Of a stretch of DNA of 64,000 nt, positions 3,380-60,623 are shown in pieces. Origin of the DNA: a virus; the IMG/VR virus record IMGVR_UViG_3300009514_000016, positions 16,186 to 80,185 of that record. The stretch is one strand, 5' to 3'. Position 1 is the first letter of the stretch; every line of letters starts with the position of its first letter. The translations under genes and the position numbers were made by a program. The notes below the pieces were generated by a model. That model was not told the origin of the DNA, made no database searches, and worked only from the letters and a program-made list of their open reading frames with translations.

Positions 3380-4357
3380 ATGAATAACTGGTATCTCAAA
3401 TTCATCAAACTGGCGCAAGAAGAAAAGTCTCCAACATGGCAAGATGAATTCGCTGATATTAAAGATCGTTTCAGCGTCGCTCACGATATGATGGCAGAAA
3501 AAGGCCACCAAACCTTTCAAGACCCCATGGTCACTGATCTTACAAATATTGATTATATATCAGAACAATTCTTAAATCAACACACTAGCGAAATTTTAGA
3601 CAAAATAGAAACACTAAAAAGAAGTTACCAAAACCAAACAAATATCAATGATGAACCACAAGAAATGCCAGATGCTTGGATTGGACCCTATCACGAAGAA
3701 GAAATAACATATCCAGAAGCCAGAGGAAGATTAATGTTTAATTTGCCGCTAATGAATTACAACATAAGCATCAATATGGATATGTATATTGACGAACACC
3801 CATCAACATTTGCTTGGAATCCTAATAATTCATATTTTTCACTTGCAGCAGATTTCACTTCAGAACCAGTTTTATCTAAGAAAGCATTCGAAGGAGAACG
3901 CGGAGGAAGCTCAATAGTTCATATCCCATACACCTTAGCTAATGAAAAATATATAAAGCCATACCTGAAAAATCTAATAAATGGATCAGTTCATAGCTAC
4001 ATCAATCGAAATAGCAACGCACTTCAAGATATGCTCCAATCAAAAGCACCTGATCAACATATCGGAAACCTAAATAAAAACAACCAAATGCTAATGAATA
4101 TAGCATGGAAATTCAATGAAGCAAATACTAATAATTGCACTCCAGAAATTCTAGATGGACAATTAGATGGATTGCAACTGGCCGCAGAAATATGCGAACA
4201 CCCATATATCAGAAAAATCTACAATGACCACATCAATCCTGACGATAGGCGAGAATCTATCTATGTTAGCAGCCTGTGGTCTCTCCCATATTCTGTTTTT
4301 GTGCATTTAGTTCACTGGATGGAAGAATTTATCAATAAGAATTCTGGGCCATCCTAA
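3380..4357 (+). CDS. Hypothetical protein with NWY tag; paralogue of 62567..63415
   Basis: Starts MNNWYLKFIKLAQ; shares AEKGH and SLP..V..H...M...IN blocks with 62567. Confidence 0.8.
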   Translation: MNNWYLKFIKLAQEEKSPTWQDEFADIKDRFSVAHDMMAEKGHQTFQDPMVTDLTNIDYISEQFLNQHTSEILDKIETLKRSYQNQTNINDEPQEMPDAWIGPYHEEEITYPEARGRLMFNLPLMNYNISINMDMYIDEHPSTFAWNPNNSYFSLAADFTSEPVLSKKAFEGERGGSSIVHIPYTLANEKYIKPYLKNLINGSVHSYINRNSNALQDMLQSKAPDQHIGNLNKNNQMLMNIAWKFNEANTNNCTPEILDGQLDGLQLAAEICEHPYIRKIYNDHINPDDRRESIYVSSLWSLPYSVFVHLVHWMEEFINKNSGPS

Positions 4358-4902
4358 ATCTCTAATTGTTCATACCTGTCAACATCTTCAATAAAAGACT
4401 CAATTAACTCAACCTCAATTAGATTTGTACTACACATGTCTTCTGCGACGCTTGCGTCCATTGATGCTAGTTTTTCTTCTTTGCTTTTTGATTTATGTTT
4501 TACACAAGTTCCATATTTATCGTGAGGCAAAGTAGTGTTATTTGGTAAGAAACACACATTTTTGCAAAACCAAAAATATTCGACAATTGGCCAAGGTCGG
4601 TATTCTTCTTTTTGTTCTGATTTAGAAAGTATATATGTGAATCTCACAAAACTAATAAAACCAATCAAGCATATTATTGCGCCGCTAATGGAAATTATAG
4701 AATAATTTCCCGATGTTAACATGCAAGATATGATACCTATAGTAAAAAAGGTTAATACTACATAAAAACCCTCGAATTCCCCCTGAGGTGTTGTTTTATC
4801 AACAGAGTTTTTGATTCTATAATATATTATTATAGGAATTGTCACCGGAAGTAACATTATTCTCACCCAAAAACATAGAAAATCCAATATTATTCTCATC
4901 AT
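4354..4902 (-). CDS. Membrane protein with C-terminal LEI tag
   Basis: Three hydrophobic segments; ends RYEQLEI. Confidence 0.75.
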   Translation of the reverse strand: MMRIILDFLCFWVRIMLLPVTIPIIIYYRIKNSVDKTTPQGEFEGFYVVLTFFTIGIISCMLTSGNYSIISISGAIICLIGFISFVRFTYILSKSEQKEEYRPWPIVEYFWFCKNVCFLPNNTTLPHDKYGTCVKHKSKSKEEKLASMDASVAEDMCSTNLIEVELIESFIEDVDRYEQLEI

Positions 4903-5378
4903 ATCTCTAAATTCCCATAAGTTGTTGGTTTGAATTCTTTGATTTCTATTTCTTTGCTTTTAATGTCATTGTTTATTTGCTCATCAATTGTTGCATCTTG
5001 ACAAAAATTGAAATTGTTTTTCTCAAGAATTTTAAAAACATCGTCATATTTAGCTCTAATAATTACATTTTTATCAGTCAAAATAGCCAAATATTTGAAA
5101 CCCAAAACATTTGAGGAATAAATTTTATTTATAGTTGCTTTATATTTACAGTTTATAGCGCCATCATCATTGCTAATATACCTATCAAAAATATTGCTTA
5201 TTTCGCTGGCTTCAATTTTAGCAAGCTTCATGTTTTCATCGTAAAAATAATATCTTAAAATGTCAATATGAATAACGTCGGATGGACCCAATTCATGAGC
5301 ATAAAACGCTTCTGAAATAATCTGGACAGTCTTATGTGGAAGACTCCTATACGCACAGCGATACACTTGATTTGTCAT
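4899..5378 (-). CDS. Hypothetical protein with C-terminal LEI tag
   Basis: GAGGA SD; ends TYGNLEI. Confidence 0.75.
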   Translation of the reverse strand: MTNQVYRCAYRSLPHKTVQIISEAFYAHELGPSDVIHIDILRYYFYDENMKLAKIEASEISNIFDRYISNDDGAINCKYKATINKIYSSNVLGFKYLAILTDKNVIIRAKYDDVFKILEKNNFNFCQDATIDEQINNDIKSKEIEIKEFKPTTYGNLEI

Positions 5379-5395
5379 CTGTTCCTCATTATTCG

Positions 5396-5680
5396 CTAAT
5401 TTTCTTTTCTCATTGCATAAACTTCCTCACCAGTTTGCAATGCGTCGCACAATTCTCTAGCCATGCCAACAGCGTAATCTATGTCATGTGGAAAACTATC
5501 AATATCATCCAGGTGGTCTTTATTTACAAATTTACTCTTAAGGGCATTGTTAATATATGATATTAGATCTTTGGCGTTTTGTTTTGCTTGTTTCAGCCAA
5601 TCTTTCACTTCGCTGTCAAGAATTTTGTAGTTTCTTTTGTCTTCTTCAGTTTCTAATTTATAGAATAATTCTTCGCTCAT
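5396..5680 (-). CDS. Hypothetical helical protein
   Basis: GGAG SD and upstream GTATAAT. Confidence 0.7.
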   Translation of the reverse strand: MSEELFYKLETEEDKRNYKILDSEVKDWLKQAKQNAKDLISYINNALKSKFVNKDHLDDIDSFPHDIDYAVGMARELCDALQTGEEVYAMRKEN

Positions 5681-5709
5681 GATAGTCTCCGCATATAGTC
5701 TACAAATTT

Positions 5710-5716
5710 ATTATAC
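5710..5716 (-). promoter_or_regulatory. GTATAAT sigma70-like -10 element (representative of 11 copies)
   Basis: Same 7-mer upstream of genes at 1296-1302, 9198-9204, 42719-42725, 43382-43388, 45034-45040, 54502-54508, 57134-57140, 58291-58297, 60673-60679 (all -) and 46380-46386 (+). Confidence 0.7.
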
Positions 5717-5780
5717 CGGATATGGATTGAGGATAAAATTTTATTGCTATTACTGTTGGTTTTCTATTGAATGGTTGTTA

Positions 5781-6449
5781 CTATATTTCTAAAACTCCAT
5801 ACATGCCATTTGCAAGTTTTCTACTTATTATGGTCAAAAATCCTTTTTTATGATCTATAAAATTATCTTTATTATAATAAGGAATGCACAGGCGTCGCTC
5901 GCTATCGTCTAAGTCATTTTTTATGCTAAGTCTTTTACCAATGTCATAGCCAGACAGCGAATTCTGCAACTCAAGCCACATACGTTTACATTTAAAATAA
6001 AGACCTATATACTCTTTCATTAGTTTGGTCCCATTAAAATTAAATACATATATTAGATCCCCTCCCAAGATATTGTCATGTATATATGTTATTTTATTGT
6101 GTGGTTTGATCTCTTTTAGCGAATTTTTATTGTCCTCATGGCTTAGTGCTATATGGCATTTAGCTATTATTTTGCTTACATCGGTAGACGAATAAGTAAA
6201 GTTGCAATGTTGTTCTTTCATGCAGTATTCAGTAAAATAACTTTTTATCACATATGGAACAGCGTACGTCAGAATGTCCTTTTTTATCGCCTTATAGGGA
6301 ATTGCGTTTTCTAATTTTATTTGACCGCTCTGATCGAATTTGATGTCATCATATTGGTTTTCGTTGAAAAATTCTTGTATCATAGAATGAGTATTGCGTG
6401 GCAGTAATTCGTTAAATTTGCTAGTATATTGTTGCACAATGCCGCTCAT
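5781..6449 (-). CDS. Hypothetical protein with C-terminal LEI tag
   Basis: AGGAG SD; ends MYGVLEI. Confidence 0.75.
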   Translation of the reverse strand: MSGIVQQYTSKFNELLPRNTHSMIQEFFNENQYDDIKFDQSGQIKLENAIPYKAIKKDILTYAVPYVIKSYFTEYCMKEQHCNFTYSSTDVSKIIAKCHIALSHEDNKNSLKEIKPHNKITYIHDNILGGDLIYVFNFNGTKLMKEYIGLYFKCKRMWLELQNSLSGYDIGKRLSIKNDLDDSERRLCIPYYNKDNFIDHKKGFLTIISRKLANGMYGVLEI

Positions 6450-7978: not shown

Positions 7979-7981
7979 AAA

Positions 7982-35591: not shown

Positions 35592-36335
35592 CTATATTTC
35601 TAGAAGCATGTCCTTGGGACCGTCCTCCTCGACAACCAAGAAATCGTCAAAAGCTTTAATGGCTTCATTTGTTTCCGGTTTCTTTGGAGCTAGATCCATG
35701 ACGGTAACTTCCTCTCCTTTTGTGTTAGATGATTTGATTTTCTTTGGCTTTTCTTCAGAAGAGTCTTTTATTTCAAAAGGAACCTCTTCTTTTTTCTCTG
35801 CTTTTTTAGATGGTCTGCCACGTTTCTTCGCAGTTTTCTTTGTTGCAGTCTTTTGTGCAGTCTTCTTCTTCGCAGGCTTTGCGCTTCTCTTTTCAAGAAT
35901 TTCTAGTTCTTCTGCTGATAACTCTGGCTCAACAGTCTTAAACTCTTCTTTGTCAACCTTGATAAGAAATTTTGCTTTTTCCGCTCCTAAGAAATCAGGC
36001 GCAAAAGAATGTTTCTTAGGCACTGTCAAGAATTTATCTTCTTTAGAAACTCTATAAGTAGCTCTTTTGTCGCCTTCCAGATATTGCAGGGCCATATGTC
36101 CTGATGGAAGATGAACTGAATAACGAACTGTTTCATTATCATCATATTCTTCTTCTTCTGGATGAATTTCAACTTTCCCAATTAGTTCAAGAACCTTGTG
36201 AGAAATCGCATTCTGCACTTCTGCGGTCTGGAAGTGAACATCGTCAATGTCCACGATTGAATTGTACGGGACTAACGCTCTGGCGCACTCCAACGAAACT
36301 GCGGTTTTTCTTGGGTTTATGTTTTTCAATTTCAT
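35592..36335 (-). CDS. Protein with Lys/Ala-rich histone-H1-like segment and AT-hook
   Basis: AKPAKKKTAQKTATKKTAKKRGRPSKK; ends DMLLEI. Confidence 0.7.
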   Translation of the reverse strand: MKLKNINPRKTAVSLECARALVPYNSIVDIDDVHFQTAEVQNAISHKVLELIGKVEIHPEEEEYDDNETVRYSVHLPSGHMALQYLEGDKRATYRVSKEDKFLTVPKKHSFAPDFLGAEKAKFLIKVDKEEFKTVEPELSAEELEILEKRSAKPAKKKTAQKTATKKTAKKRGRPSKKAEKKEEVPFEIKDSSEEKPKKIKSSNTKGEEVTVMDLAPKKPETNEAIKAFDDFLVVEEDGPKDMLLEI

Positions 36336-38713: not shown

Positions 38714-38717
38714 CTTA

Positions 38718-41062: not shown

Positions 41063-42688
41063 TTAGAATGGAATTCCTGGAATGCCGCTCAACATTTCCC
41101 CGCCTGCTTTTGGATTTTCCTCAACCAACATGACTTGGCTTGTTAGAAGCAATCCGGCAATGCTCGCAGCAGTTTCTAAAGCAGTTGTTGTAACTTTAGC
41201 TGGGTCAATGATTCCGCTCTCAACAACGTCTCCATACTCTCCACTCGCAGCATCATAGCCATATTCATACTTGTTTTCTCTGAGAACATTTTGGACAACA
41301 ACCTCCCCATTTGCTCCAGCATTCTCAGCAATTTTCATAATAGGAGCAGCAAGAGCTTCATAGACTATCTGAATTCCTCTTGCGAAATCTCCCTTATGTT
41401 CTTTGGCAAAGTCTGTTAGAACTTCTCTTGATCTTAGCAAAGCGATCCCACCTCCAGGGAGAACTCCAGTTTCAATTGCAGCTCTGGTTGCGTGTAGAGC
41501 ATCCTCGATTCTGGCTTTCTTTTCTTTCATCTCTACTTCAGTGGCAGCGCCAACATTAATCTGAGCAATTCCGCCAGCAAGTCTAGCTAGACGCTCTTGC
41601 AATTTCTCAGTTTCATATTCACTCTTTGAAGCAGCGATATGTGATTTGATTTGCTCAATTGCCTCGTCAATCTTTTCATCCTCGCCATAGCCATTGGTAA
41701 TAGTTGTTGAATGTTTGGTTATGACGATTTTCCCGCAACGTCCCATATCTTCAATTTTGAAGTCTCTAGCTTTCTTGCCTGAGTCTTTTAGGAGTGCTTT
41801 TCCGCCAGTGGCAACAGCAATATCTTCAATAAGGTTTCTCTGGGTGTCACCAACACCGGGGACTTTGACGCAGCAAGCACTCATTCTGCCTTGCAGCTTA
41901 TTGGTCAAAATGGTTGTCAAGAATATTTCAGAGAAATCTGGAGCAATGAGAACAACTGATTCGCCTTCATTGGCGCATGCTTGAAGCACTCCAGTTAAAT
42001 CTCTGATGTTCACATTTTTGTCATCTGTCAAAAACAGGCGAGCATTGTGGAAAACACATGTCTGCTTATCTTTTTCTGTTGCGAATGCCTGACTGACCCA
42101 TCCTTTATCAAATTGCATACCAGCAATTAGGTCGATATAAGTTTCATTGGTTTTGCCCTCTTCAACTGTGACAACGCCATCTGTCCCAACCTTCTCCATT
42201 GCATCAGCGATAATTTCGCCGATATAGGTATCGTTGTTGGATGCGATTGAGGCAACTTGAGTTACTTCATTTTTGCTGTCAATTTGCTTAACTTTGGCCT
42301 TCAAGTCTGCCATAACTTTATCGACCGCAGCGTGAATCCCGTTCTTTAGAGTGACTGGGTTAGCGCCAGCAGAAACTGCTTTTCTTCCGCTTTGATAAAT
42401 TGCTCTTCCAAGAACAGTAGAAGTTGTGGTTCCATCTCCAGCGACTTCAGCAGCTTTGACAGCAACTTCTTTTAGCATTCTTGCGCCAAGATTCACAAAT
42501 TCATCTGATACTTCAAATTCTTTTGCTACAGTAACGCCGTCTTTGGTGACTATTGGAGAACCGCCTAGTTTTCCAATGATAACATGTCTTCCTTTTGGCC
42601 CAAGAGTAGATCCAACTGCATCGGCAATTTGATTTACGCCTTGCTCAATAGCATCCTGAGCATACTCAAAGTATATGACTTTTTTCAT
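41063..42688 (-). CDS. groEL: Chaperonin GroEL
   Basis: TLGPKGR, TKDGVTVAKE, AGDGTTTSTV, GMQFDKG, LQERLARLAGG, PGGG, GIIDPAKV. Confidence 0.97.
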   Translation of the reverse strand: MKKVIYFEYAQDAIEQGVNQIADAVGSTLGPKGRHVIIGKLGGSPIVTKDGVTVAKEFEVSDEFVNLGARMLKEVAVKAAEVAGDGTTTSTVLGRAIYQSGRKAVSAGANPVTLKNGIHAAVDKVMADLKAKVKQIDSKNEVTQVASIASNNDTYIGEIIADAMEKVGTDGVVTVEEGKTNETYIDLIAGMQFDKGWVSQAFATEKDKQTCVFHNARLFLTDDKNVNIRDLTGVLQACANEGESVVLIAPDFSEIFLTTILTNKLQGRMSACCVKVPGVGDTQRNLIEDIAVATGGKALLKDSGKKARDFKIEDMGRCGKIVITKHSTTITNGYGEDEKIDEAIEQIKSHIAASKSEYETEKLQERLARLAGGIAQINVGAATEVEMKEKKARIEDALHATRAAIETGVLPGGGIALLRSREVLTDFAKEHKGDFARGIQIVYEALAAPIMKIAENAGANGEVVVQNVLRENKYEYGYDAASGEYGDVVESGIIDPAKVTTTALETAASIAGLLLTSQVMLVEENPKAGGEMLSGIPGIPF

Positions 42689-42742
42689 ATTTCAATTCTC
42701 CGTTTTGTTCGCTTTGCAATTATACAAGCTTTGTCGGTGTCT

Positions 42743-43069
42743 CTAAGCTGTTTCTACTAGTTCGTCTTCTGTTTCTTCAACTAGAGAGATAACAGCCAGT
42801 ACATTTTCATCTTTGACGACGGTGTACTTTTGTCCGCCGATTTCAATAATAGTTCCTTGAGAGAAAACAATCTGGTCTCCAAGCTGAACATCAAGATTTT
42901 CAAATTCTTTGACTTGAACACCGATTCTAACGACAGTTCCTTTAATGCTGTTACTATTCATTTCTTCTTCTGATTCAGGAATGAATAGAGCATCAGGGTC
43001 TTGTTCCACTTTTTTAACTGGAGTGACCAAGAAGTGTCTAGGGGCTGGACGAATCTCTACTTTGCTCAT
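42743..43069 (-). CDS. groES: Co-chaperonin GroES
   Basis: IRP...FLV, LFIPES, GTVVRIG, GDQIVF, VKDENVLAVI; adjacent to groEL. Confidence 0.85.
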   Translation of the reverse strand: MSKVEIRPAPRHFLVTPVKKVEQDPDALFIPESEEEMNSNSIKGTVVRIGVQVKEFENLDVQLGDQIVFSQGTIIEIGGQKYTVVKDENVLAVISLVEETEDELVETA

Positions 43070-43912: not shown

Positions 43913-44248
43913 TTATATCTCTATGTTTGTAAATCTGTCTTCTGAACCACCAGTTTTAGGAGTGTTTTTGCCCTTAACAAATGTATCAGCGATTTTTGTA
44001 GCCAAAAATTTGTCTATGCATCTAGGCCCGTGAAAAGGAACGTCATATATATGTTCTTTTTTCTTATCTGGCTCAGCGGCTGGTCGGTAGATCTTTAATC
44101 TGCAATACATAGTTCCTGTTCGGATCTCTTTATTGCATCCGGGGCATGTGTAGTCTTTGGACGCAGGAAATCTGGAATCTCTTATTAGTAAATACTCTCC
44201 TAAAGATTTTCGAATTAGGGGATTCCAATCTGTGTCCTTATTAGCCAT
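43913..44248 (-). CDS. Zn-ribbon protein with C-terminal IEI tag
   Basis: ASKDYTCPGCNKEIRTG...HGPRC; ends RFTNIEI. Confidence 0.7.
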   Translation of the reverse strand: MANKDTDWNPLIRKSLGEYLLIRDSRFPASKDYTCPGCNKEIRTGTMYCRLKIYRPAAEPDKKKEHIYDVPFHGPRCIDKFLATKIADTFVKGKNTPKTGGSEDRFTNIEI

Positions 44249-44249: not shown

Positions 44250-44591
44250 TCACTGCCTTTTGATTTTAGATATTTCTAACACTAGATATCTCAAATACAT
44301 TGGAATTAGGAATATCGCAGCAATAGGAAAGAAATAGGCCGACACTCCAAACAACGCTGACATTGAGATGAAAATAGCTGCATTAAAACCAAATTCAAGT
44401 TTTGTATGCTCTTTTCCCTCTTTTGATTTATCAGAAAGTTCTTGAATCTTGTCTAAAATCTTCTCTGAAGCGGCTGTCATAGATTCTGCTAGTTGTTGGC
44501 CTTGTTTGTCTTTTGCGGATTTCGCATTTTTAAGTGTATCAATAAAATCATTATATTCTTGGCCGTAATTGTTTTTATTTTCTTCTGTCAT
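44250..44591 (-). CDS. Small membrane protein
   Basis: C-terminal hydrophobic hairpin; ATGA overlap with the upstream stop. Confidence 0.6.
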   Translation of the reverse strand: MTEENKNNYGQEYNDFIDTLKNAKSAKDKQGQQLAESMTAASEKILDKIQELSDKSKEGKEHTKLEFGFNAAIFISMSALFGVSAYFFPIAAIFLIPMYLRYLVLEISKIKRQ

Positions 44592-45028
44592 ATTTCCAAC
44601 CCAACCCATCTGTCAGTGTGGTCCCACATTTTTTTGTTCTCTTCATGAAGATATTCGACACTGATATCTTTGTAGACGCAAATCTCTCCAGCGTGAGGCC
44701 CCTCAATAAATTCAATATTAAATGAAGTGCCAGTGTAGTAGTCTACGTCAATTGAATGTATTATACCAACGGATTGTTCCGGGTCAAATCGTTTCTTAAG
44801 TCTTACTTTATCGCCTATTGTTGGCATCCATTCCATATTGCACGATCCGATGATTTCATATTGTCTAGGATTTAAGACGGCCCGATATCCGGGTTTACCG
44901 CTAATGAATGAGACAAGAACAAATAGGCCAGTCTCGCGCTCTTGCACGCTAAGAATTCTGGCGACACAATTGTGAAGTTGGTGATTTTCGGCCAAACACC
45001 GAATCACTTTATCTTTTTCCGGTTTCAT
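44588..45028 (-). CDS. Tandem SH3/KOW-like protein with C-terminal LEI tag
   Basis: P.IGDKVR type repeats; ends RWVGLEI; leaderless GTATAAT promoter. Confidence 0.7.
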   Translation of the reverse strand: MKPEKDKVIRCLAENHQLHNCVARILSVQERETGLFVLVSFISGKPGYRAVLNPRQYEIIGSCNMEWMPTIGDKVRLKKRFDPEQSVGIIHSIDVDYYTGTSFNIEFIEGPHAGEICVYKDISVEYLHEENKKMWDHTDRWVGLEI

Positions 45029-46290: not shown

Positions 46291-46409
46291 ATTCAACTCC
46301 TTATGAGATTCAACCGCTATTATATGAATAAAGTGTTGATGGCCAATGATTTTTAAATTTTCCTCTTTTCCGACACCGAGTATAATACCAAAGATTGAAA
46401 GGAATGACA

Positions 46410-47729
46410 ATGAATTGGGAAAACATCACAGAATTTATTGTTCCAGCCATGACGACTGGAATAGCCCCGCGCCCAAATATCAAAAACATCAAAACTGAAA
46501 ATCTTTTTCAGTACACAATCAAGTCATATCTCGAATGGACAGATAAAAACAGTCTGACCATTGTTGCTAAAAACGCAATCCCTGGTGATAACATACATCT
46601 CTCTGGCTGGAATTTATCGGCAAAAACCTTAGATTTAGACGTTAAGTCTATGACTTTCAAAGAAAAATTGTCAACTTTTCTTCTTCCAGTCAAAAGTTAC
46701 CCGCCAAATACTTATGACTCATTTGCCACAACTAAAAATGGCAAAATATTTAATATATCCAATTACCCATATCAAGACCCATACTACAAAACACAAACCA
46801 AATCTGATTACCACGACTACCGACTGCACATACTGAATAATGATGATAAAACTGGATATGCCGGGGAATATAATATTCTGACTCAAGAACATCCGATGTC
46901 AGTAAATATCCCCATTAAAGACCAAATATTTGATCACATAAATGAGAGAAATCCATATCCATTCATGAGCACTAGTAATAACAAAGAAAAAACGCTGATA
47001 AGCAATGAGAAATTAGGATTATTCACTGTCTATGATGAAAACCTTAACTACTGTTTATTTGTTGTTCAAGCAAAAGGAGCTAATGCTGCCATCCTGTCCC
47101 CGAATGGATGTCAAATAATTGTATTCTTGCAACATAAAAACAAGCTAAATTACAAATGCTATGACATAAATTCTGGAACATTGACCAAAACTGGTCAATT
47201 TGCCATCGGGAACAAAAGAAACAAATTTGAACTCAAACCTGAACTAATGGCAATGGACAGCAAAAGAAAGCTGATGTATCTTGGCTATCATAATAATGGA
47301 ATCCCATATATTGCAGTTGCTAATTTTGCAGATGATTCAGTTGTGATCAAGCCATTGGGCGACATAAATGAAATCACTTCTATTAAACAAGATGGAGATT
47401 ATATCTCTGTTGGCGGGGTTATGGTTAAAGGGATGAATTCTATTAATGCCTATGTCCCAAAGAACACCTTTTCGCTTGCTCTAAAAACAAAACCGACTCA
47501 CATATGTAACTCTTTCTTTCAATATGATGATGAAGAAAAAACAATCTCTCACTGCAAGCAATACGATTTCAGCTACAAACTTAATATCGCTAAATCACAG
47601 AGCATATCAAGCAATATCGCTAATAATATGTTGGCTGTTATGGTTGACGATCGCATTCAAATCAAGGAATTCATCAATGAGGAGTTGAAAAACACATATG
47701 ACAAGAAATACCAAGACCTTGAAATCTAA
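46410..47729 (+). CDS. Beta-propeller-like protein with C-terminal LEI tag
   Basis: WD40-like pieces (AILSPNGCQI, EITSIKQDGDYISVGG); ends KYQDLEI; GTATAAT at 46380. Confidence 0.65.
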   Translation: MNWENITEFIVPAMTTGIAPRPNIKNIKTENLFQYTIKSYLEWTDKNSLTIVAKNAIPGDNIHLSGWNLSAKTLDLDVKSMTFKEKLSTFLLPVKSYPPNTYDSFATTKNGKIFNISNYPYQDPYYKTQTKSDYHDYRLHILNNDDKTGYAGEYNILTQEHPMSVNIPIKDQIFDHINERNPYPFMSTSNNKEKTLISNEKLGLFTVYDENLNYCLFVVQAKGANAAILSPNGCQIIVFLQHKNKLNYKCYDINSGTLTKTGQFAIGNKRNKFELKPELMAMDSKRKLMYLGYHNNGIPYIAVANFADDSVVIKPLGDINEITSIKQDGDYISVGGVMVKGMNSINAYVPKNTFSLALKTKPTHICNSFFQYDDEEKTISHCKQYDFSYKLNIAKSQSISSNIANNMLAVMVDDRIQIKEFINEELKNTYDKKYQDLEI

Positions 47730-51649: not shown

Positions 51650-52066
51650 TTATTTCGATATTTTGATCTGTTTCAAAACAGGTTTCTCTTCTTCTTTTTT
51701 ATTCACTCTCAACTTCAACACTCCATTTTTGCAAGTTGCAACCAAAGTATCAATATCTGCATCTGATGGAAAATTATACTTGTAATAGTGCGATCTTGAT
51801 TCTAAGGTTTCTTCTGAGCTTTTTGCACTTACTTCAACATGAGATTCACCGCATTTTATCTCAATGTCTTCATCAGAAACTCCTGGCACATCTAGGTTCA
51901 TATAGTAATAATGCCCTGGACACTCTCCTAAGTCTTGAATCTCTTTCCAATAGTGAGATTTCAAAATACTCTTGTCTTCCAACATGTGTTTTGCGCCAGA
52001 ATAAGCCCCATGCCAAATCTTATCAAAATCACTCCAAAGTTTATGCCACATACTCGAATGAAACAT
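51650..52066 (-). CDS. Small heat-shock protein Hsp20 (alpha-crystallin domain)
   Basis: LDVPGVSDEDIEI, FPSDADIDTLVATCKNGVLKLRVNK, C-terminal IKI motif. Confidence 0.9.
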   Translation of the reverse strand: MFHSSMWHKLWSDFDKIWHGAYSGAKHMLEDKSILKSHYWKEIQDLGECPGHYYYMNLDVPGVSDEDIEIKCGESHVEVSAKSSEETLESRSHYYKYNFPSDADIDTLVATCKNGVLKLRVNKKEEEKPVLKQIKISK

Positions 52067-52148: not shown

Positions 52149-52154
52149 AATCAA

Positions 52155-52955
52155 TCAGATTTCTAGTTTTGCGAAATCTTGTTCACAATTCCCTATGGAT
52201 TTCATGATTTTTTTAATATATCTGTTGTAGGCGTTCAGGTATTTTTTCATTAAATACGTTTCGCATATTTCCAGATAGCGATCATTTTTGATGTCATATA
52301 TTTTTTTAGACTTACCTTTTTGCATAATTTTAAATCTGTTAATGAATAGTTCTGGCCTGTCCAAGAACGGAATTATATTAGCAAACTCATCTTTCCCATA
52401 AGGGAAACCGCTTATATTCCGCTTCATCCACACGCCGCTATGTTTATTGAAACACTCGAAAGTATGAATAGAGTATCCGGTGCCTTCTCCGTAAGAAATA
52501 GTCCTGTTATTAGAGCATACTCTGAATTTTTGAGCATCAAAAGATATTTTGTTAAATTTCTTGCCAAACTCTTTTCCAAAATTCCTTTCGATAAACATGT
52601 AAAACTCTTTGGGAATGCTTAAAAAGAATTTATCGGTTCTGTTGATCTTTTCTGGTTTGACTTTAGCGCGGTACTCACATTCATATGCAACGTAATATTC
52701 TTCTTTGTCGATATAATCGCTGCAAAGAGAAATAGAGTCAATATCTTTTCTGAAATTTGCTCCTTCATAGAGTTCCGTGAATGTTTCTCTACTTCCGTCT
52801 CTGCCCATGCTGTCATTCAACAAATACGTCATCAAGTCATGAATATCATATGAAACTACAAACACATATTCAATTCCAGACTCGTCTTTGAAACCAATCT
52901 TGATTGAATTGCTTGTGTAGTGTCGGCCATCGAAAAATGTCCATTCTTTTTTCAT
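52155..52955 (-). CDS. Hypothetical protein with LEI tag; probable paralogue of 52957..53691
   Basis: Start MKKEWTFFDG; ends DFAKLEI. Confidence 0.7.
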   Translation of the reverse strand: MKKEWTFFDGRHYTSNSIKIGFKDESGIEYVFVVSYDIHDLMTYLLNDSMGRDGSRETFTELYEGANFRKDIDSISLCSDYIDKEEYYVAYECEYRAKVKPEKINRTDKFFLSIPKEFYMFIERNFGKEFGKKFNKISFDAQKFRVCSNNRTISYGEGTGYSIHTFECFNKHSGVWMKRNISGFPYGKDEFANIIPFLDRPELFINRFKIMQKGKSKKIYDIKNDRYLEICETYLMKKYLNAYNRYIKKIMKSIGNCEQDFAKLEI

Positions 52956-52956
52956 A

Positions 52957-53691
52957 TTACAATTCCAAGAGAGAGTATTCTTTTTCTGTTGGGGCAGCAA
53001 CCCGATTTATGGCGTTGTATTTACACATAATAATTGCGTTCATAGGCGAATTCTTCTCATAAACCCATGCATGTTGGATTTTATCTGATTTAGGCGACAC
53101 AATAGCTGCGCCACTATCCCTTTTAATGCAAATCTCAAATAGCTCTTCAAAAACTTGATCATTCCAATAACTCAGAAACATATGCGCTGAAGGCTCTCTT
53201 CGCACAGGGTAAAACCTATAAATAACATTTTTGTTGTCAACTACATAGTATGAATCGTCTGTCGGACACTGATAAATTTTGTCGTAGAATATTTTCCTGT
53301 CTTCATTAAAGTGCTTGCCAATCGACTCTCCGCATATATTGGATAAATCATCGTAAGTTGCTTTTGCTATCTTACTGGACAATTTCCCTTTTGGCCCTTC
53401 ACCACTAACGCTATATTTCTTCCCATCCTTAGTGATTGCGATGCTTTTAGGGTTGATCTCGCTGAATATTGATTGCTTTGTAGCCGTTTTAATTTTCTTA
53501 CCTTTAATCTGAGATTCGTCACGTTCAACATCGCCATAAATTGCTTTGATGAACAAATTTATAGATAAAGCTGATTGCATAAAATAATACTGACTTAGAA
53601 CCCCCATTTCCTCATCGCATTGATCACCAACAACGAAAAGCGGTCCAGCATGCAAATAGCTTCCATCAAATTCAAAATATTTATCCGACAT
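52957..53691 (-). CDS. Hypothetical protein with LEL tag
   Basis: MSDKYFEFDG start, G..[FI]GK.FN and KY.NA.NR blocks shared with 52155; ends EYSLLEL. Confidence 0.7.
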   Translation of the reverse strand: MSDKYFEFDGSYLHAGPLFVVGDQCDEEMGVLSQYYFMQSALSINLFIKAIYGDVERDESQIKGKKIKTATKQSIFSEINPKSIAITKDGKKYSVSGEGPKGKLSSKIAKATYDDLSNICGESIGKHFNEDRKIFYDKIYQCPTDDSYYVVDNKNVIYRFYPVRREPSAHMFLSYWNDQVFEELFEICIKRDSGAAIVSPKSDKIQHAWVYEKNSPMNAIIMCKYNAINRVAAPTEKEYSLLEL

Positions 53692-54530: not shown

Positions 54531-54929
54531 TTATATTTCTAGTTCTGAGAACCTTTTCATTGGGTCATACAATTTCGATATAACTTCTTTTTTATGGGCA
54601 TCTAAATTAGGATATTCAACACCGTGAATAAAATATCTGTGCTTTCCTGATGGCGTTATAATGGCGGGGCCATCCTCTCTGTGATATTGCTCATTAAAAT
54701 AGTAAGCAATGAAACCATCGGCGCATACAACGGCAGGCCCATCTTCTCTATGAAGTTGTCCCCATTTATTTTTCCATTCTTTTCTGAATTCTCCATTGGA
54801 AAACAAAATATACTTGCCAACCATTTTGCGAGCATAAGTTTCATTAGAATTAATAACTAATGGCTGTGCTTCATCAATATATATGGTTTCAGGGTATTTG
54901 CTAGAGTTGTTATACGACGTTATCTTCAT
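54531..54929 (-). CDS. HREDGPA-repeat protein with LEI tag
   Basis: Two HREDGPA repeats; ends RFSELEI. Confidence 0.75.
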   Translation of the reverse strand: MKITSYNNSSKYPETIYIDEAQPLVINSNETYARKMVGKYILFSNGEFRKEWKNKWGQLHREDGPAVVCADGFIAYYFNEQYHREDGPAIITPSGKHRYFIHGVEYPNLDAHKKEVISKLYDPMKRFSELEI

Positions 54930-56014: not shown

Positions 56015-56710
56015 CTATATTTCCAATCCAGAATAAGTTTCGTCAACTTCTTCTTCTCTTTCGCATTTTTTCTTGGCCTTTTTCTTTGATTTTTTCTTTC
56101 CACCTTTAAAAAGATCAGGTCTGTTTTCTTTGCGATAGGGAGTAAGTTCTTTCAAAACATCAAAATACTTTGGATCAGTTAAGAATGTTATTTCCTCTAA
56201 TATCCCTAATGCTGCATCTTTCTTTTTTTGTTCCTCATATAGCGCGTAGACATTATCCGCTATAACAGATGAAATTACAGAGCATGGATTGCGATAAGAT
56301 AGATGGATTACACTTGTCTCTGGCGGGCAGAATTGCCATCTATCTTTTGCAGGATCAGTAAGAGCATTTTCTATGTCCTTCTCAATATTTTCTTCTCCGA
56401 CCCCCTTGTAGAGATCCCATCTTAACGTAAAAGCCAATCCGCATTTCGCCCAAAAAACATTTGATCCAACATGTAAAACACCGTTTGAGCTTTGATTGCA
56501 CACAGACATATTCATTGAGGAAAAACACCAAGGACATCCATCTCGAAATATCTTTGATACATTATGGATGTACTTGTAATTTTTACATTTGTCACATATC
56601 TTGTCTTTGACTAGGTATGCCGAAAAATCAAAATATTTTCCTGGATCTCCTTTACATAACTCGCAATCATATGGAACTCTCAACGGCTCGGGCATTAATG
56701 CGGTTTTCAT
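56015..56710 (-). CDS. Cys-rich Zn-binding protein with LEI tag
   Basis: CELC, CDKC, CPWC; ends TYSGLEI; GGAG SD. Confidence 0.7.
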   Translation of the reverse strand: MKTALMPEPLRVPYDCELCKGDPGKYFDFSAYLVKDKICDKCKNYKYIHNVSKIFRDGCPWCFSSMNMSVCNQSSNGVLHVGSNVFWAKCGLAFTLRWDLYKGVGEENIEKDIENALTDPAKDRWQFCPPETSVIHLSYRNPCSVISSVIADNVYALYEEQKKKDAALGILEEITFLTDPKYFDVLKELTPYRKENRPDLFKGGKKKSKKKAKKKCEREEEVDETYSGLEI

Positions 56711-56711
56711 C

Positions 56712-57128
56712 TCAATTCTCCAAATCACTCAAAATCTTGTTAACCAAATGCCAACACATAGTAACGCATTTGACTCTCATTGGGTATTCTCTTACTCCTG
56801 AGAAAACCATGAGTTTTTCATCTTCAATATCTCCATCATTAGTCAACATCCCATGGAATTTTTCAAATATATTTTTAATATCACTAACGCTCATGCCTTT
56901 AAGCTTCTCTGTCATGATGGACGCCGACGCCGTGGACAGGGCACATCCGCTGCCTGTGAAGTTAACTTGCGAGACTGTGTCGTTTTCTAATGATAACCAT
57001 AATTGAATTTTATCACCACATAAGCGATTATGTTCAGATCCACAGTGTGTATACTTTGATGGTTCACTGAAATTACGCGGATTATTATTGTGATCAATAA
57101 TCACTTCACGGTATAAATCGTCAATCAT
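56712..57128 (-). CDS. sufU: SufU/NifU-type Fe-S cluster scaffold
   Basis: LYREVIIDHNNNPRN, NRLCGDKI, FTGSGCALSTASASIM, FSGVREYPMRVKCVTMCWH. Confidence 0.92.
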   Translation of the reverse strand: MIDDLYREVIIDHNNNPRNFSEPSKYTHCGSEHNRLCGDKIQLWLSLENDTVSQVNFTGSGCALSTASASIMTEKLKGMSVSDIKNIFEKFHGMLTNDGDIEDEKLMVFSGVREYPMRVKCVTMCWHLVNKILSDLEN

Positions 57129-57625: not shown

Positions 57626-57711
57626 GTAATAATGATCCTAAAATTCGAACTATATGGTTCAATTTTAGATTATTGCTAATGATTTCCTTTCAATATTTTT
57701 GGCGCAAAATA

Positions 57712-58263
57712 TTATATTTCCAGCATTGAGTACGGATCATCTTTAGTCATAACCTTTAAAACTAGATCATGCTTTTCTTTATCTGATTTATATTTTTCGA
57801 TGATAGGTTCTTTATTTTTATATTCTTCTGATTTTGAATTAGTGTTGAAACTATTTAAATATTGAGTATACTTCGCAATATGTCCTTGCCATTCAGCGAC
57901 GTAACTATCATACTTTGATGCTTTTATTTTGATTCCTAAAATATAGTATTCTTTGCTCCCTCCAGATGAAAACCATGCAGGCCCATCTTCTCTGTGAATA
58001 TACCCTGACGCAGTTCTATAGGTAGTTGTGTCTAAAGTTGTCGTTACATGCGTTGTTTGCGGAGTGGACGGTATGACGATTAGGCCAGTGCCACACTTCA
58101 TAGATTTAAAGTTTTTCATTTCATAGATAATAAAGATAATAAACAAAAATACTGTTGCAAGATATGCGATGCTTACTGTAACAGCGTCAAAAAATATGAG
58201 GCCCAAAGGAAAAGTGAAAAACAATATGTTAGGAATTTTATCTCTTATCTTTTGCGCTATCAT
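57712..58263 (-). CDS. Membrane protein with HREDGPA repeat and LEI tag
   Basis: Start MIAQK with AGGAG SD; two TM segments; ends PYSMLEI. Confidence 0.7.
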   Translation of the reverse strand: MIAQKIRDKIPNILFFTFPLGLIFFDAVTVSIAYLATVFLFIIFIIYEMKNFKSMKCGTGLIVIPSTPQTTHVTTTLDTTTYRTASGYIHREDGPAWFSSGGSKEYYILGIKIKASKYDSYVAEWQGHIAKYTQYLNSFNTNSKSEEYKNKEPIIEKYKSDKEKHDLVLKVMTKDDPYSMLEI

Positions 58264-58386
58264 GTTAGATCTCCTAAAAGTATGCATTCCATTATACATG
58301 ATCATTGTGTTTGTTCCTAATTCCGCCCAAAAATAAAGCAAATCAAATAAACAGGAAATTTATAATCCAAAAAGAAATAATCCCTT

Positions 58387-58989: not shown

Positions 58990-58990
58990 T

Positions 58991-59683
58991 TTATATCTCT
59001 AATCCTGAATATGGATTATCATATAATTGTTTGTCCAAGATATCTGCTTCTACTAAATTCTTTTTGCTCACAATCAATTTATCACTGTAATTATTATCAA
59101 CAATATCTTGCACCCTGATATTGTCGTCAACATATTTGTTCTTAGGAATATACCATTGACGCTTTTTCATGAATTCTTTGGCATAATGCATATCAAGCCA
59201 TCTGTTTGTAAAGAAATCAACCAAATCTGAATACTGAAAAACACAAAGTGTGCGCTCTATTTTATAGAGAAAACCATCTGTCGGAATTCCAAGGTGAGTC
59301 AACTTTGCCTTGTGATCGTATTCCATTTTATCTTTGTGCAATTGCCACAAAAATCCACCAATGTTATAAAAAATACTTTCATCACTTCCATTGTCCCTGT
59401 GACCTTCTGGAATTTTATCTAATTTTTCATTTATCTCTTTAACCGTTGGTATCAAATTGGAACTTAGGTCGCATTCGGTGTTGGATGATCCGTCTTCAAC
59501 AGTCAAAACTTTGCCTAATAGATTTTTATTATTATTGTGAGTGAAGCTAATTTCAATTCTAAATTGAGATGAACACGCTGTAGTTATCTTAGTTTGACAT
59601 GCTGGTGATAGATTTTTCATAAATTCATCAAGAGTGTATCTTTTCCAATTTGGGTCGTAGCCCCAATAATATAAATTGCCCAT
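58991..59683 (-). CDS. Hypothetical protein with LEI tag
   Basis: Ends NPYSGLEI. Confidence 0.72.
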   Translation of the reverse strand: MGNLYYWGYDPNWKRYTLDEFMKNLSPACQTKITTACSSQFRIEISFTHNNNKNLLGKVLTVEDGSSNTECDLSSNLIPTVKEINEKLDKIPEGHRDNGSDESIFYNIGGFLWQLHKDKMEYDHKAKLTHLGIPTDGFLYKIERTLCVFQYSDLVDFFTNRWLDMHYAKEFMKKRQWYIPKNKYVDDNIRVQDIVDNNYSDKLIVSKKNLVEADILDKQLYDNPYSGLEI

Positions 59684-60144
59684 TATATCTCCAATCCTGA
59701 GTAAGGATCTCTCTTTGTGACAATGAATTTTTTGTCTTCGATATAACTGCCATAAATAATAGTCTCAAAGTCTTGTTTGCTAAAACATTTTCCACCAATA
59801 TAGTAATGATTTTCTTCGCCCACCATAACCGCAGGGCCATCCAATCTGTGGATCTTGCCGCAAACAAAAAAGAGTCTACTATCTGCTGCCCAAAACGATA
59901 CATTAGATTCTAAAATATGAGGAAACTCAGAAATAACTGGAATCTCCTGAGCTACCAACAATGCTGGACCTCCAACCCTGTGCCGAACCCCATTGAGCCA
60001 CCACTCCTCAGAGCCATTGTCCCACACAACTGCTGGCCCACCTTCTCTGTGAATCCTTCCGTTATCATCATAATAAGTTTTATACTGAGGAGATTTCATG
60101 AACTGAGAAAAGAAATCATAGCCCAAGTTATCAAAATTAAACAA
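59683..60144 (-). CDS. HRxDGPA-repeat protein with LEI tag
   Basis: Three HRxxGPA repeats; ends DPYSGLEI. Confidence 0.75.
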   Translation of the reverse strand: MFNFDNLGYDFFSQFMKSPQYKTYYDDNGRIHREGGPAVVWDNGSEEWWLNGVRHRVGGPALLVAQEIPVISEFPHILESNVSFWAADSRLFFVCGKIHRLDGPAVMVGEENHYYIGGKCFSKQDFETIIYGSYIEDKKFIVTKRDPYSGLEI

Positions 60145-60146
60145 CT

Positions 60147-60623
60147 CTAAATCTCCAATAACTCATATGGGTTTCTAGGATGAGCAAGCTGAATCTCTCC
60201 AGCAATTTTTTGAACAATGCCGTGTTTGGCCTTATAGGATTCTGCGGATTTTTTATATCTTCCCATATCTACAGTGTCTATTATTTCATTGCGCGATCCA
60301 AAATAAGCACCGTCAACATAATAATAAGCAGATCGGACAATTGGCTTTCCTTGATCTTGACGGTCAACTCTCTGAATCGCAGGGCCATCGACATTGTGAT
60401 ACAACCCATTTTTGTAGTATTTGTAAAAATAGAAGAACTCATTCTTTATTTCCACATAAGCAGGGCCATTATCTCTGTGAAGTTTTCCATTTTTATGCCA
60501 AGTTCTTATTGATGTATTTTGACCTGAAAATTGCAATGAAGATGGCTCATCATTAAAGCTGTGCAATTTCCCATCGTCATTATAGGTTCTAATACCGCCA
60601 TTTTTAAACGTTTTCTTTTTCAT
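60147..60623 (-). CDS. HRxDGPA-repeat protein with LEI tag
   Basis: LHSFNDEPS, LHRDNGPA, YHNVDGPA; ends NPYELLEI. Confidence 0.75.
   Translation of the reverse strand: MKKKTFKNGGIRTYNDDGKLHSFNDEPSSLQFSGQNTSIRTWHKNGKLHRDNGPAYVEIKNEFFYFYKYYKNGLYHNVDGPAIQRVDRQDQGKPIVRSAYYYVDGAYFGSRNEIIDTVDMGRYKKSAESYKAKHGIVQKIAGEIQLAHPRNPYELLEI

What the first reader, a model, noticed from the sequence alone, without database searches (positions are those of the whole stretch)
4354..60623. A shared C-terminal [YFW]-x-x-L-E-I-COOH tag on 15 unrelated phage proteins
Seen: ORFs with stops at 4354 (RYEQLEI), 4899 (TYGNLEI), 5781 (MYGVLEI), 35592 (KDMLLEI), 43913 (RFTNIEI), 44588 (RWVGLEI), 47729 (KYQDLEI), 52155 (DFAKLEI), 52957 (EYSLLEL), 54531 (RFSELEI), 56015 (TYSGLEI), 57712 (PYSMLEI), 58991 (PYSGLEI), 59683 (PYSGLEI) and 60147 (PYELLEI). 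Thirteen are exact LEI, and 14 of 15 have an aromatic residue at -6. The protein bodies are unrelated (membrane proteins, Zn ribbons, SH3-like, propeller-like, HREDGPA repeats). Codons are synonymously scrambled (Leu TTA/TTG/CTA/CTT/CTG, Glu GAA/GAG, Ile ATA/ATT/ATC, all three stops), so selection acts on the peptide rather than the DNA. Established: free C-terminal hydrophobic motifs act as docking or degradation signals (ssrA tag for ClpXP, PDZ class II Phi-x-Phi ligands, SSB C-tail, HbYX). Inference: the phage appends a common zip code to many accessory proteins to route them to one hub, such as a protease/unfoldase, a PDZ or TPR adaptor, a compartment or an export machine. I do not know of a description of this tag.
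Basis: partly seen in the sequence, partly recalled or inferred. Interest (0 to 1): 0.92.

Follow-up and report, generated by a model that had tools for sequence, protein, structure and literature searches.

The report
Shared C-terminal tag on megaphage proteins
About a quarter of the proteins on this fragment of a giant uncultured phage, which are otherwise unrelated, end in the same six-residue tail (aromatic-x-x-Leu-Glu-Ile), kept by selection on the protein; it looks like an undescribed address label, but what reads it is still unknown.

Summary
All 15 listed ORFs end as stated. The whole 80-kb contig (about 17% of a phage G-like megaphage) has 22 of 95 ORFs ending [LIV]-E-[IL], 21 of them with Y/F/W at -6. 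Controls are far lower: 1 of 808 spurious ORFs, 0.17% of internal positions, and 4 of 688 ORFs in Bacillus phage G on a looser pattern.

The tagged proteins fall into 18 unrelated groups. Codons at the tag follow genome usage. Ten tagged genes have no adjacent downstream gene, so this is not a ribosome-binding-site artefact or paralogy. 120 homologues of one carrier lack the tail. AlphaFold models the tail as a low-confidence coil.

A related lineage (two contigs) carries a variant, F-x-W-x-x-[MI]-x-hydrophobic-COOH, on 52 small proteins in 48 unrelated groups.

The tag is almost always exactly terminal, so something senses the free end. Best reading: a modular docking or degradation peptide read in trans. 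No reader was identified. There is no PDZ or ClpP on the contig, and the adjacent trypsin-like protease carries a SET domain, not a PDZ domain. A phage small heat-shock protein, whose groove binds I-x-I tails, is only a lead. The scan has noted analogous tags in other phages.

The parts
4354..4902 (-). Tagged ORF, 182 aa, N-terminal membrane segments, tail RYEQLEI. Convergent with a + strand gene, so no downstream gene.
4899..5378 (-). Tagged ORF, 159 aa, tail TYGNLEI
5781..6449 (-). Tagged ORF, 222 aa, tail MYGVLEI. The next gene is 100 nt away, behind a GGTATAAT promoter-like site.
35592..36335 (-). Tagged ORF, 247 aa, Lys-rich with an RGRP (AT-hook-like) motif and an acidic end, tail KDMLLEI (no aromatic at -6). 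It lies in the late/head region, immediately upstream of the trypsin-like protease. It is the positional counterpart of a protein in relatives whose tail is D-x-F-[LIV]-[EKQ]-[ILVY]-COOH.
43913..44248 (-). Tagged ORF, 111 aa, Cys-rich, tail RFTNIEI
44588..45028 (-). Tagged ORF, 146 aa, tail RWVGLEI
46395..47729 (+). Tagged ORF, 444 aa, tail KYQDLEI (the only tagged ORF on the + strand of the window)
52155..53000 (-). Tagged ORF, up to 281 aa, tail DFAKLEI. The next gene downstream, 88 nt away, is the phage Hsp20.
52957..53691 (-). Tagged ORF, 244 aa, tail EYSLLEL
54531..54929 (-). Tagged ORF, 132 aa, HREDGPA repeats, tail RFSELEI, followed by a GGTATAAT promoter-like site
56015..56728 (-). Tagged ORF, 237 aa, Cys-rich, Lys-rich linker, tail TYSGLEI
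57712..58341 (-). Tagged ORF, 209 aa, two membrane segments plus an HREDGPA repeat, tail PYSMLEI
58991..59683 (-). Tagged ORF, 230 aa, tail PYSGLEI. Convergent with a + strand gene, so no downstream gene.
59683..60144 (-). Tagged ORF, 153 aa, HREDGPA repeats, tail PYSGLEI. In the AlphaFold model the repeats and a helix are confident and the last ~11 residues are a low-confidence coil. 120 homologues elsewhere lack the tail.
60147..60623 (-). Tagged ORF, 158 aa, HREDGPA repeats, tail PYELLEI, behind a TGTATAAT promoter-like site
44250..44609 (-). The only near-terminal, non-terminal copy of the motif: YLVLEI followed by six residues (SKIKRQ)
51650..52066 (-). Untagged phage small heat-shock protein (Hsp20/alpha-crystallin domain) with its own I-K-I tail motif. 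It is a candidate reader of hydrophobic-x-hydrophobic tails; this is a lead only.
34284..35591 (-). Untagged trypsin/HtrA-like serine protease (His and Ser kept, Asp replaced by Asn) fused to a C-terminal SET domain. It was considered as a reader. It has no PDZ domain.
41063..43069 (-). Untagged phage GroEL (41063-42688) and GroES (42743-43069), in operons with the same promoter type as the tagged genes

Best explanation
The tail D/N-[P/R]-[Y/F/W]-x-x-[L/I/V]-E-I-COOH is a modular short linear motif. It hangs on a flexible C-terminal linker of many unrelated, mostly small, non-virion accessory proteins of a phage G-like megaphage. One common partner reads it in trans and senses the free C-terminal end.

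Shown:
- The tail is selected at the peptide level.
- It is independent of protein family.
- It is essentially always exactly terminal.
- A related lineage has its own version with the same spacing: aromatic at -6, aliphatic at -3, hydrophobic at -1.

Inferred:
- A single reader exists that binds the last three residues like a class II PDZ-type or degron-type ligand (hydrophobic-x-hydrophobic-COOH), with the aromatic residue as a second anchor.
- The tag lets the phage handle these proteins as one group.

My split of the trans-reader reading:
- Timed removal by a protease or unfoldase that reads C-termini (C-degron), about 0.3.
- Non-degradative docking or localisation hub, about 0.3. Within this, the phage's own small heat-shock protein groove is the one concrete candidate on the contig, at about 0.12-0.15.
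For: Enrichment:
- 22 of 95 ORFs carry the tail, against 0.17% of internal positions, 1 of 808 spurious ORFs, and 4 of 688 ORFs in phage G on a looser pattern.
- The tagged proteins form 18 unrelated groups.

Peptide-level selection:
- Leu, Glu and Tyr codons match genome usage and all three stop codons occur as in untagged genes.
- In the paralogue pair, bodies are 29% identical over the aligned region but the last 12 residues match at 10 of 12 positions.

Not coupling signals:
- Ten of 22 tagged genes have no adjacent downstream gene. There is no association with coupling, P = 0.34.

Modularity:
- 120 homologues of the HREDGPA carrier lack the tail.
- Tagged proteins have no homologues in the fetched relatives.

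Exposure:
- The last ~11 residues are a coil with pLDDT 54-59 after a confident helix.

Terminal reading:
- 21 terminal copies against 3 elsewhere in about 24,900 residues.

Variant code in a relative:
- 52 proteins in 48 unrelated groups on two contigs end [FL]-x-W-x-x-[MI]-x-hydrophobic.

Selectivity:
- In the same GTATAAT-promoter operons, enzymes and chaperones are untagged: DNA methyltransferase, NifU-like protein, GroEL/ES and Hsp20. Other enzymes on the contig are untagged too: CCA-adding enzyme, deformylase and glycosyltransferases.
- Two membrane proteins are tagged on their soluble C-terminal parts.

Established knowledge:
- Free C-terminal hydrophobic tripeptides are read by PDZ domains, ClpX, tail-specific proteases and TPR domains. 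This is my own knowledge, not tested here.
- I-x-I tails are read by the beta4-beta8 groove of alpha-crystallin domains (PMC4823740). The motif is IEI in IbpA (bioRxiv 10.1101/2020.04.20.050740).
Against: - No reader was found. No PDZ or ClpP is on the contig. The adjacent protease has a SET domain, not a PDZ domain, and no match to it was found in the G004 contig, the G006 contig or phage G.
- Genes shared by the tag-bearing contigs are only head genes, glycosyltransferases, a deformylase and an HNH-like protein.
- Hsp20 occurs only in this contig. It was not found in the two contigs that carry the variant tag, which by CheckV's estimates are 17% and 29% of a genome each. Canonical I-x-I motifs need not be terminal.
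- The two tag versions could be independent inventions. Closer relatives by capsid identity (83%) show no tag in syntenic regions.
- No binding, stability or localisation evidence of any kind exists.
Confidence: 0.6

Rival explanations
1. Capsid or virion targeting. The tail copies the conserved C-terminal tail of the scaffold-like protein next to the protease and loads the tagged proteins into the procapsid. This would resemble encapsulin cargo-loading peptides or the C-terminal capsid-targeting signal of the HK97 protease.
For: - One tagged ORF (35592-36335) sits in the head region next to a protease.
- In 10 of 12 relatives the protein at that position ends D-x-F-[LIV]-[EKQ]-[ILVY]-COOH.
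- The capsid protein is a minimal 287-aa HK97-type protein, 56% identical to phage G gp27.
- Head genes are the main genes shared by the two tag-bearing lineages.
Against: - Twenty-one of 22 carriers lie in GTATAAT-promoter operons together with chaperones and enzymes, not in the head module.
- Two carriers are membrane proteins.
- The clade already has a separate N-terminal leader (MNNWY...K-x-A-Q) on other proteins that fits capsid targeting and cleavage.
- The scaffold-like tails have the aromatic residue at -4, not -6.
- The G000 protein is not detectably homologous to those of the relatives.
Confidence: 0.08
2. Cis-acting nascent-chain signal. The last residues act inside the ribosome when the stop codon is in the A site, for example to pause or tune termination. 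This would explain the exact terminal position without any reader protein.
For: - Strict register with the stop codon.
- Selection is on the peptide.
- The last Ile codon is biased to ATA.
- In the G004 contig, tagged genes are more often tightly coupled to the next gene (17 of 24 against 32 of 83, P = 0.01).
Against: - All three stop codons are used as in untagged genes.
- There is no link to coupling in this contig or in the G006 contig.
- The two lineages use different residues, although the ribosome tunnel is conserved.
- I can see no benefit of pausing at the end of 22 full-length proteins, some of which end operons.
- Conserved acidic/Pro/Arg positions at -8 and -7 and a flexible linker look like a docking motif.
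Confidence: 0.06
3. DNA- or RNA-level signal. The conserved letters would be the Shine-Dalgarno sequence, spacer and start of the next gene (GGAG-ATATA-ATG) or another nucleic-acid element, and the peptide would be a by-product.
For: - TTGGAGATATAATG-type junctions exist at several tagged genes.
- ATA is enriched at the last codon.
Against: - Ten of 22 tagged genes have no adjacent downstream gene. Three have no downstream gene on their strand and seven are followed by gaps of 37-176 nt, several with promoter-like sites.
- There is no association with coupling.
- Untagged genes are coupled just as often.
- The aromatic residue at -6 and positions -8 and -7 lie outside any ribosome-binding site.
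- Synonymous sites vary.
- Only 1 of 808 ORFs in other frames ends this way.
Confidence: 0.02
4. No common function. The tails are remnants of shared ancestry or of a recombining gene-end cassette, or a general structural cap that stabilises small proteins.
For: - Two small paralogue groups exist.
- Tagged genes cluster in arrays.
Against: - The proteins form 18 unrelated groups here and 48 in the other lineage.
- Codons are diverged, so there has been no recent DNA exchange.
- The tail is conserved while the bodies have diverged beyond recognition.
- The tail is modelled as a free coil, not packed on the fold.
Confidence: 0.05

Closest known systems
Class II PDZ ligands and related readers of free C-termini (e.g. 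the DegS PDZ domain reading Y-x-F-COOH of outer-membrane proteins; tail-specific protease Prc)
   Same: Hydrophobic-x-hydrophobic at the very C-terminus, a further aromatic residue upstream, and dependence on the free end. Many unrelated proteins can carry it.
   Different: - No PDZ domain was found on the contig.
- Bacterial PDZ proteins are mostly periplasmic, while these carriers look cytoplasmic.
- Glu at -2 is invariant here.
- The resemblance rests on my own knowledge of PDZ classes and was not tested.
I-X-I/V tail motif of small heat-shock proteins, read by the beta4-beta8 groove of the alpha-crystallin domain (IEI in E. coli IbpA; PMC4823740; bioRxiv 10.1101/2020.04.20.050740)
   Same: [I/L/V]-E-I on a flexible C-terminal extension. 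The phage encodes an Hsp20 with its own I-K-I tail, immediately downstream of the largest tagged gene cluster.
   Different: - The carriers are not heat-shock proteins.
- The tag is exactly terminal and has an extra aromatic anchor.
- Hsp20 was not found in the lineage with the variant tag.
- Binding is untested.
C-terminal degrons of bacterial AAA+ proteases (ssrA tag ...LAA for ClpXP; short C-terminal tags of Bacillus SpoIIAB, Sda and Spx)
   Same: A three-to-six-residue terminal signal that works on unrelated soluble and membrane proteins. It would suit timed removal of early proteins.
   Different: - It is genomically encoded rather than added by tmRNA.
- The sequence is different, with an acidic residue at -2.
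- No turnover data exist.
- The host is unknown.
Peroxisomal targeting signal 1 (S-K-L-COOH read by the TPR domain of Pex5)
   Same: A proteome-wide C-terminal tripeptide address on unrelated proteins, read by one receptor.
   Different: It is eukaryotic. No TPR reader or compartment is known here. The similarity is by analogy only.
Capsid-targeting signals (N-terminal CTS of T4 internal proteins; C-terminal signal of the HK97 protease; encapsulin cargo-loading peptides)
   Same: A short peptide that sorts unrelated phage proteins. A scaffold-like protein in relatives carries a similar tail.
   Different: - The carriers are non-structural, early-type genes, and some are membrane proteins.
- A separate N-terminal leader exists in this clade.
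Shared acidic C-terminal tails of T4 and T7 replication proteins that dock on the clamp or polymerase
   Same: Several phage proteins share a terminal docking tail for one hub.
   Different: - Those carriers are a few replication proteins with acidic runs ending in an aromatic residue.
- Here there are 22 or more orphan proteins with a different motif.

Membership tests
Class II PDZ-type C-terminal ligand | Hydrophobic residues at the last and third-last positions of a free C-terminus | tested here: met
   -3 is L19/I2/V1, -1 is I21/L1, and 21 of 24 motif copies are exactly terminal
Class II PDZ-type C-terminal ligand | A PDZ-domain reader is present | tested here: inconclusive
   No PDZ_2 or PDZ_6 match on the contig, but the contig is about 17% of the genome and the host is unknown
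Class II PDZ-type C-terminal ligand | Binding depends on the free carboxylate | not testable with these tools
This needs a peptide binding assay.
Small heat-shock protein I-X-I/V tail motif | [I/L/V]-x-[I/L/V] on a flexible C-terminal extension | tested here: met
   L/I/V-E-I in 21 of 22 tails and L-E-L in one. The tail is modelled as a low-confidence coil.
Small heat-shock protein I-X-I/V tail motif | An alpha-crystallin domain with the receiving groove is encoded alongside | tested here: met
   Hsp20 at 51650-52066: Pfam 1.5e-13, solved sHSP matches with its I-K-I aligned to the Hsp16.9 motif. It is absent from the other eight records searched.
Small heat-shock protein I-X-I/V tail motif | The motif belongs to the heat-shock protein itself and lies a few residues before the end | tested here: not met
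   The carriers have no alpha-crystallin domain. The tag is exactly terminal.
ssrA/ClpXP-type C-terminal degron | Non-polar terminal tripeptide of the L-A-A type | tested here: not met
   Glu is invariant at -2
ssrA/ClpXP-type C-terminal degron | Shortens the half-life of carriers through an AAA+ protease | not testable with these tools
   No ClpP on the contig. The host is unknown. This needs reporter turnover assays.
Capsid-targeting / cargo-loading peptide | Carriers are head-module or virion proteins | tested here: not met
   Twenty-one of 22 carriers lie in GTATAAT-type operons with chaperones and enzymes. Two are membrane proteins.
Bacterial sliding-clamp binding motif (Q-L-[S/D]-L-F) | Gln at the first position and the L-x-L-F core | tested here: not met
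   Position -6 is Y17/F3/W1/D1, never Q. The end is L-E-I.

The most novel reading that the evidence does not exclude
Phage G-like megaphages run a peptide-address sorting system with two orthogonal labels. An N-terminal MNWY...K-x-A-Q leader marks head cargo. A C-terminal aromatic-x-x-aliphatic-x-hydrophobic-COOH tail marks a large set of accessory proteins. The C-terminal code co-evolves with a dedicated reader from lineage to lineage (Y-x-x-L-E-I here, F-x-W-x-x-M-x-I in a relative). It would gather, hold or clear a quarter of the phage's proteins as one group.
Probability: 0.2. Interest if true: 0.88.

Novelty: new variant of a known kind. Interest (0 to 1): 0.68.

Why it matters
If one partner reads this tail, a virus would be labelling a quarter of its genes with a genomically encoded address. 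That would be a viral counterpart of PTS1 or ssrA-type signals.

It would give three things:
- A handle to group dozens of orphan megaphage proteins by fate.
- A simple way to fish out the hub by peptide pull-down.
- A portable tag for controlling protein stability or location in bacteria.

The scan has now met analogous C-terminal tags in several unrelated phage groups. This may therefore be a general feature of large phages that I did not find described, rather than a curiosity of one contig.

Tried and rejected
The alignments made for it were A2 (protease) and A3 (22 tails).

Candidate readers:
- PDZ reading of the adjacent protease: rejected. Its C-terminal part is a SET domain, and the catalytic Asp is Asn.
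- PDZ_2, PDZ_6 and ClpP families: no match on the contig.
- Co-occurrence between tag-bearing contigs gave only head genes, glycosyltransferases, a deformylase and an HNH-like protein.
- Close relatives of the phage Hsp20 in viral contigs: none.

Searches for relatives and more tagged genomes:
- Close relatives: the terminase has no homologue above about 41% identity among 5.8 billion proteins.
- A single-sequence terminase scan of viral contigs found nothing.
- The 649-aa protein has no match in GenBank phages.
- DNA pattern for D-P-Y-S-G-L-E-I-stop in viral contigs: 0 hits.
- Pattern for P-Y-S-G-L-E-I-stop in metagenome contigs: 42 hits, all chance.
- De novo search for any shared tail in about 160 related loci: only this contig and the G004 lineage stand out.

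Other:
- Host inference from GroEL: 46-50% identity to many phyla, so uninformative.
- Sequencing runs: none was listed and no RNA holder was listed.
- Literature: four full-text searches and one phage G multi-omics preprint gave no description of such a tail.
- A promoter scan with a strict -35 requirement was too narrow, so intergenic regions were read directly.

Full report
**What is there**

The window is bases 16186-80185 of a single 80,185-bp viral contig. CheckV rates the contig as about 17% of a genome. Its genes include:
- a large terminase, a portal, GroEL and a trypsin-like peptidase
- GroES and an Hsp20
- a CCA-adding enzyme, a NifU-like protein and a DNA methyltransferase
- a peptide deformylase and large glycosyltransferases

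The 287-aa capsid protein is 56% identical to gp27 of Bacillus phage G. It is 66-84% identical to capsid proteins on many uncultured contigs of up to 548 kb. The contig is therefore a fragment of a phage G-like megaphage. The host is unknown: GroEL is 46-50% identical to proteins from many phyla.

**The observation**

Seven more tagged ORFs lie on the contig upstream of the window.

In a greedy set of 95 non-overlapping ORFs, 22 end [LIVM]-E-[IL] and 21 of these have Y, F or W at -6. The position table is:
- -8: D7, N3, T3, K3
- -7: R6, P5, F3
- -6: Y17, F3, W1, D1
- -3: L19, I2, V1
- -2: E22
- -1: I21, L1

**More than chance**

- The tripeptide class occurs at 0.17% of internal positions. The hexamer occurs once in 24,284 positions. 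Binomial P is about 1e-40 and 1e-72.
- Residue-shuffled bodies give 5.7 internal hexamers.
- Of 808 other ORFs of 25 aa or more in all six frames of the same DNA, one ends hydrophobic-E-[IL] and none has the full motif.
- In 80 related loci around the terminase, 13 of 1514 ORFs end [LIVM]E[ILV].
- In the complete 497,513-bp phage G genome, 4 of 688 ORFs match a much looser pattern, which is the baseline rate.

**Not paralogy and not a nucleic-acid signal**

With the last eight residues removed, BLASTP joins only one pair and the four HREDGPA-repeat proteins. That leaves 18 unrelated groups.

Codons for Leu, Glu and Tyr at the tag follow genome-wide usage, and stop codons match those of untagged genes. 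Only the final Ile is biased to ATA (15 of 23 against 30%). That is a small nucleotide-level effect and fits overlapping ATG starts.

Twelve of 22 tagged genes and 31 of 73 untagged genes have the next start within 15 nt (P = 0.34). Of the other ten tagged genes, three have no downstream gene on their strand and seven are followed by gaps of 37-176 nt. Several of these gaps hold TGnTATAAT-like promoters. The ribosome-binding-site explanation therefore fails.

**A modular add-on**

The 120 homologues of one HREDGPA carrier found among 5.8 billion proteins lack the tail. The tagged proteins have no homologues in any fetched relative. An AlphaFold model built with those homologues gives confident repeats and a helix. 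The last ~11 residues are a coil at pLDDT 54-59.

The motif is almost always exactly terminal: 21 terminal copies against three elsewhere. Of those three, one is near the end (YLVLEI plus six residues, 44250-44609) and one is inside the terminase. This register argues that the free end is sensed.

**A second version in a relative**

The contig IMGVR_UViG_3300035698_014118 (G004; capsid 69% and portal 53% identical) carries about 24 small ORFs ending [FL]-x-W-x-x-[MI]-x-hydrophobic. A DNA-pattern scan then found a 147-kb contig from the same sample (G006) with 28 more. It shares no head genes with G004.

Together these are 52 carriers in 48 unrelated groups. Their position table is:
- -8: F44
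- -6: W
- -3: M31, I20
- -1: I25, V8, L5

The spacing matches this contig: aromatic at -6, aliphatic at -3, hydrophobic at -1.

Neither version appears in about 160 other related loci, nor in four further whole contigs searched end to end. These include relatives with 83% capsid identity. The tag is therefore lineage-restricted. I cannot tell whether the two versions share an origin.

**Where the tagged genes sit**

They lie in clusters next to the capsid gene and beyond the terminase/GroEL region. These clusters are in operons preceded by GTATAAT-type sites. In the same operons the methyltransferase, NifU-like protein, GroEL/ES and Hsp20 are untagged. Other recognisable enzymes on the contig are untagged too: the CCA enzyme, deformylase and glycosyltransferases. 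That the tagged genes are 'early' is an inference from promoter type only. Two carriers have membrane segments followed by a soluble tagged C-terminal part.

**The one late-region carrier**

ORF 35592-36335 is Lys-rich, with an RGRP motif and the tail KDMLLEI. It lies directly upstream of a trypsin/HtrA-like protease. In relatives, a homologous protease (E about 1e-10) is preceded by a roughly 270-aa protein that is Lys-rich with an RGRPKG motif and then acidic. Its tail is D-x-F-[LIV]-[EKQ]-[ILVY]-COOH in 10 of 12 cases.

- Its C-terminal part is a SET domain, not a PDZ domain.
- Its catalytic Asp is Asn.
- No match to it was found in G004, G006 or phage G.

Co-folding was not available. The protease remains possible but is not favoured.

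**A concrete lead**

The Hsp20 at 51650-52066 lies immediately downstream of the largest tagged cluster. It is a bona fide small heat-shock protein whose own tail carries I-K-I, aligned to the I-x-I motif of wheat Hsp16.9. I-x-I/V tails are known to plug into the beta4-beta8 groove of the alpha-crystallin domain (PMC4823740). The motif in E. coli IbpA is IEI (bioRxiv 10.1101/2020.04.20.050740).

For the lead:
- L/I/V-E-I tails fit that class.
- Hsp20 is absent from phage G, which has no tag.

Against the lead:
- Hsp20 was also not found in G004 and G006, which CheckV rates at 17% and 29% of a genome.
- Canonical I-x-I motifs need not be terminal.
- The upstream aromatic residue and the invariant Glu are not features of that motif.

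**Verdict**

The tail is a real C-terminal short linear motif, selected at the peptide level, on unrelated proteins. It is most likely read in trans by one partner that senses the free end (0.6). I cannot separate a degron from a docking or localisation label.

The rivals are less likely:
- capsid targeting, 0.08
- a cis effect at termination, 0.06
- no common function, 0.05
- a nucleic-acid signal, 0.02

I found no description of the tag in the literature searches. The general kind, a shared C-terminal address or degron, is known, so I class this as a new variant of a known kind. The scan has met analogous shared tails in other phage groups. Later checks of two of those priced the 'one common reader' reading at 15-33 in 100, which tempers my confidence in the hub.

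Noticed in passing
window 2647-3378(+), 3380-4357(+), 37928-38743(-), 49856-51154(-), 58387-58989(+); relatives L103 and L109: A separate N-terminal leader, M-(N)-N-W-Y...K-x-A/S-Q, opens at least five ORFs here, including the CCA-adding enzyme. None of them has the C-terminal tag. In relatives many ORFs beside the capsid gene start MKIYRLAQ, MNWYKKAQ or MKIIK.... Other notes read K-x-A-Q as the cutting site of the head protease.
   Followed up: partly
window 34284-35591(-): A trypsin/HtrA-like serine protease is fused to a C-terminal SET (lysine methyltransferase-like) domain. His and Ser are kept and the Asp position is Asn. Relatives have the protease without the SET domain but with a conserved ~170-aa N-terminal region. 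It sits next to a Lys-rich, AT-hook-like protein.
   Followed up: partly
window 41063-43069(-), 51650-52066(-); L101:8130-8786(-): The phage carries a proteostasis set: GroEL, GroES, an Hsp20 and a peptide deformylase. No Hsp20 match was found in phage G or in seven related or pattern-matched viral contigs.
   Followed up: partly
window 19363-21495(-): The portal protein carries a C-terminal DUF559/endonuclease-like domain at residues ~596-704.
   Followed up: no
window 138-1304(-): A TnpB/Cas12f-like ORF (TNB domain, E = 1.7e-16) lies between two tagged gene clusters.
   Followed up: no
window 6533-9145(-): Two adjacent ORFs (481 and 387 aa) both hit the ROS/MucR zinc-finger family. The first also carries a methyltransferase domain.
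   Followed up: no
window 54531-54929, 57712-58341, 59683-60144, 60147-60623 (all -): These four ORFs belong to a family of W-x-x-G-x-x-H-R-x-D-G-P-A repeat (MORN-variant-like) proteins. The family is widespread in metagenomes (122 homologues; a few carry DUF6745 or MORN_2). The model shows beta-hairpin repeats.
   Followed up: partly
L101:1032-4934(-) (contig bases 1032-4934, upstream of the window): A 1300-aa protein carries several GT2 and GT4 glycosyltransferase domains. A second, 521-aa GT4 protein is shared with the G006 contig.
   Followed up: no
last codon of the tagged ORFs: The final Ile is ATA in 15 of 23 cases, against 30% genome-wide. This probably reflects ATATGA/ATATAATG overlaps with the next start. 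It is the only nucleotide-level bias at the tag.
   Followed up: yes
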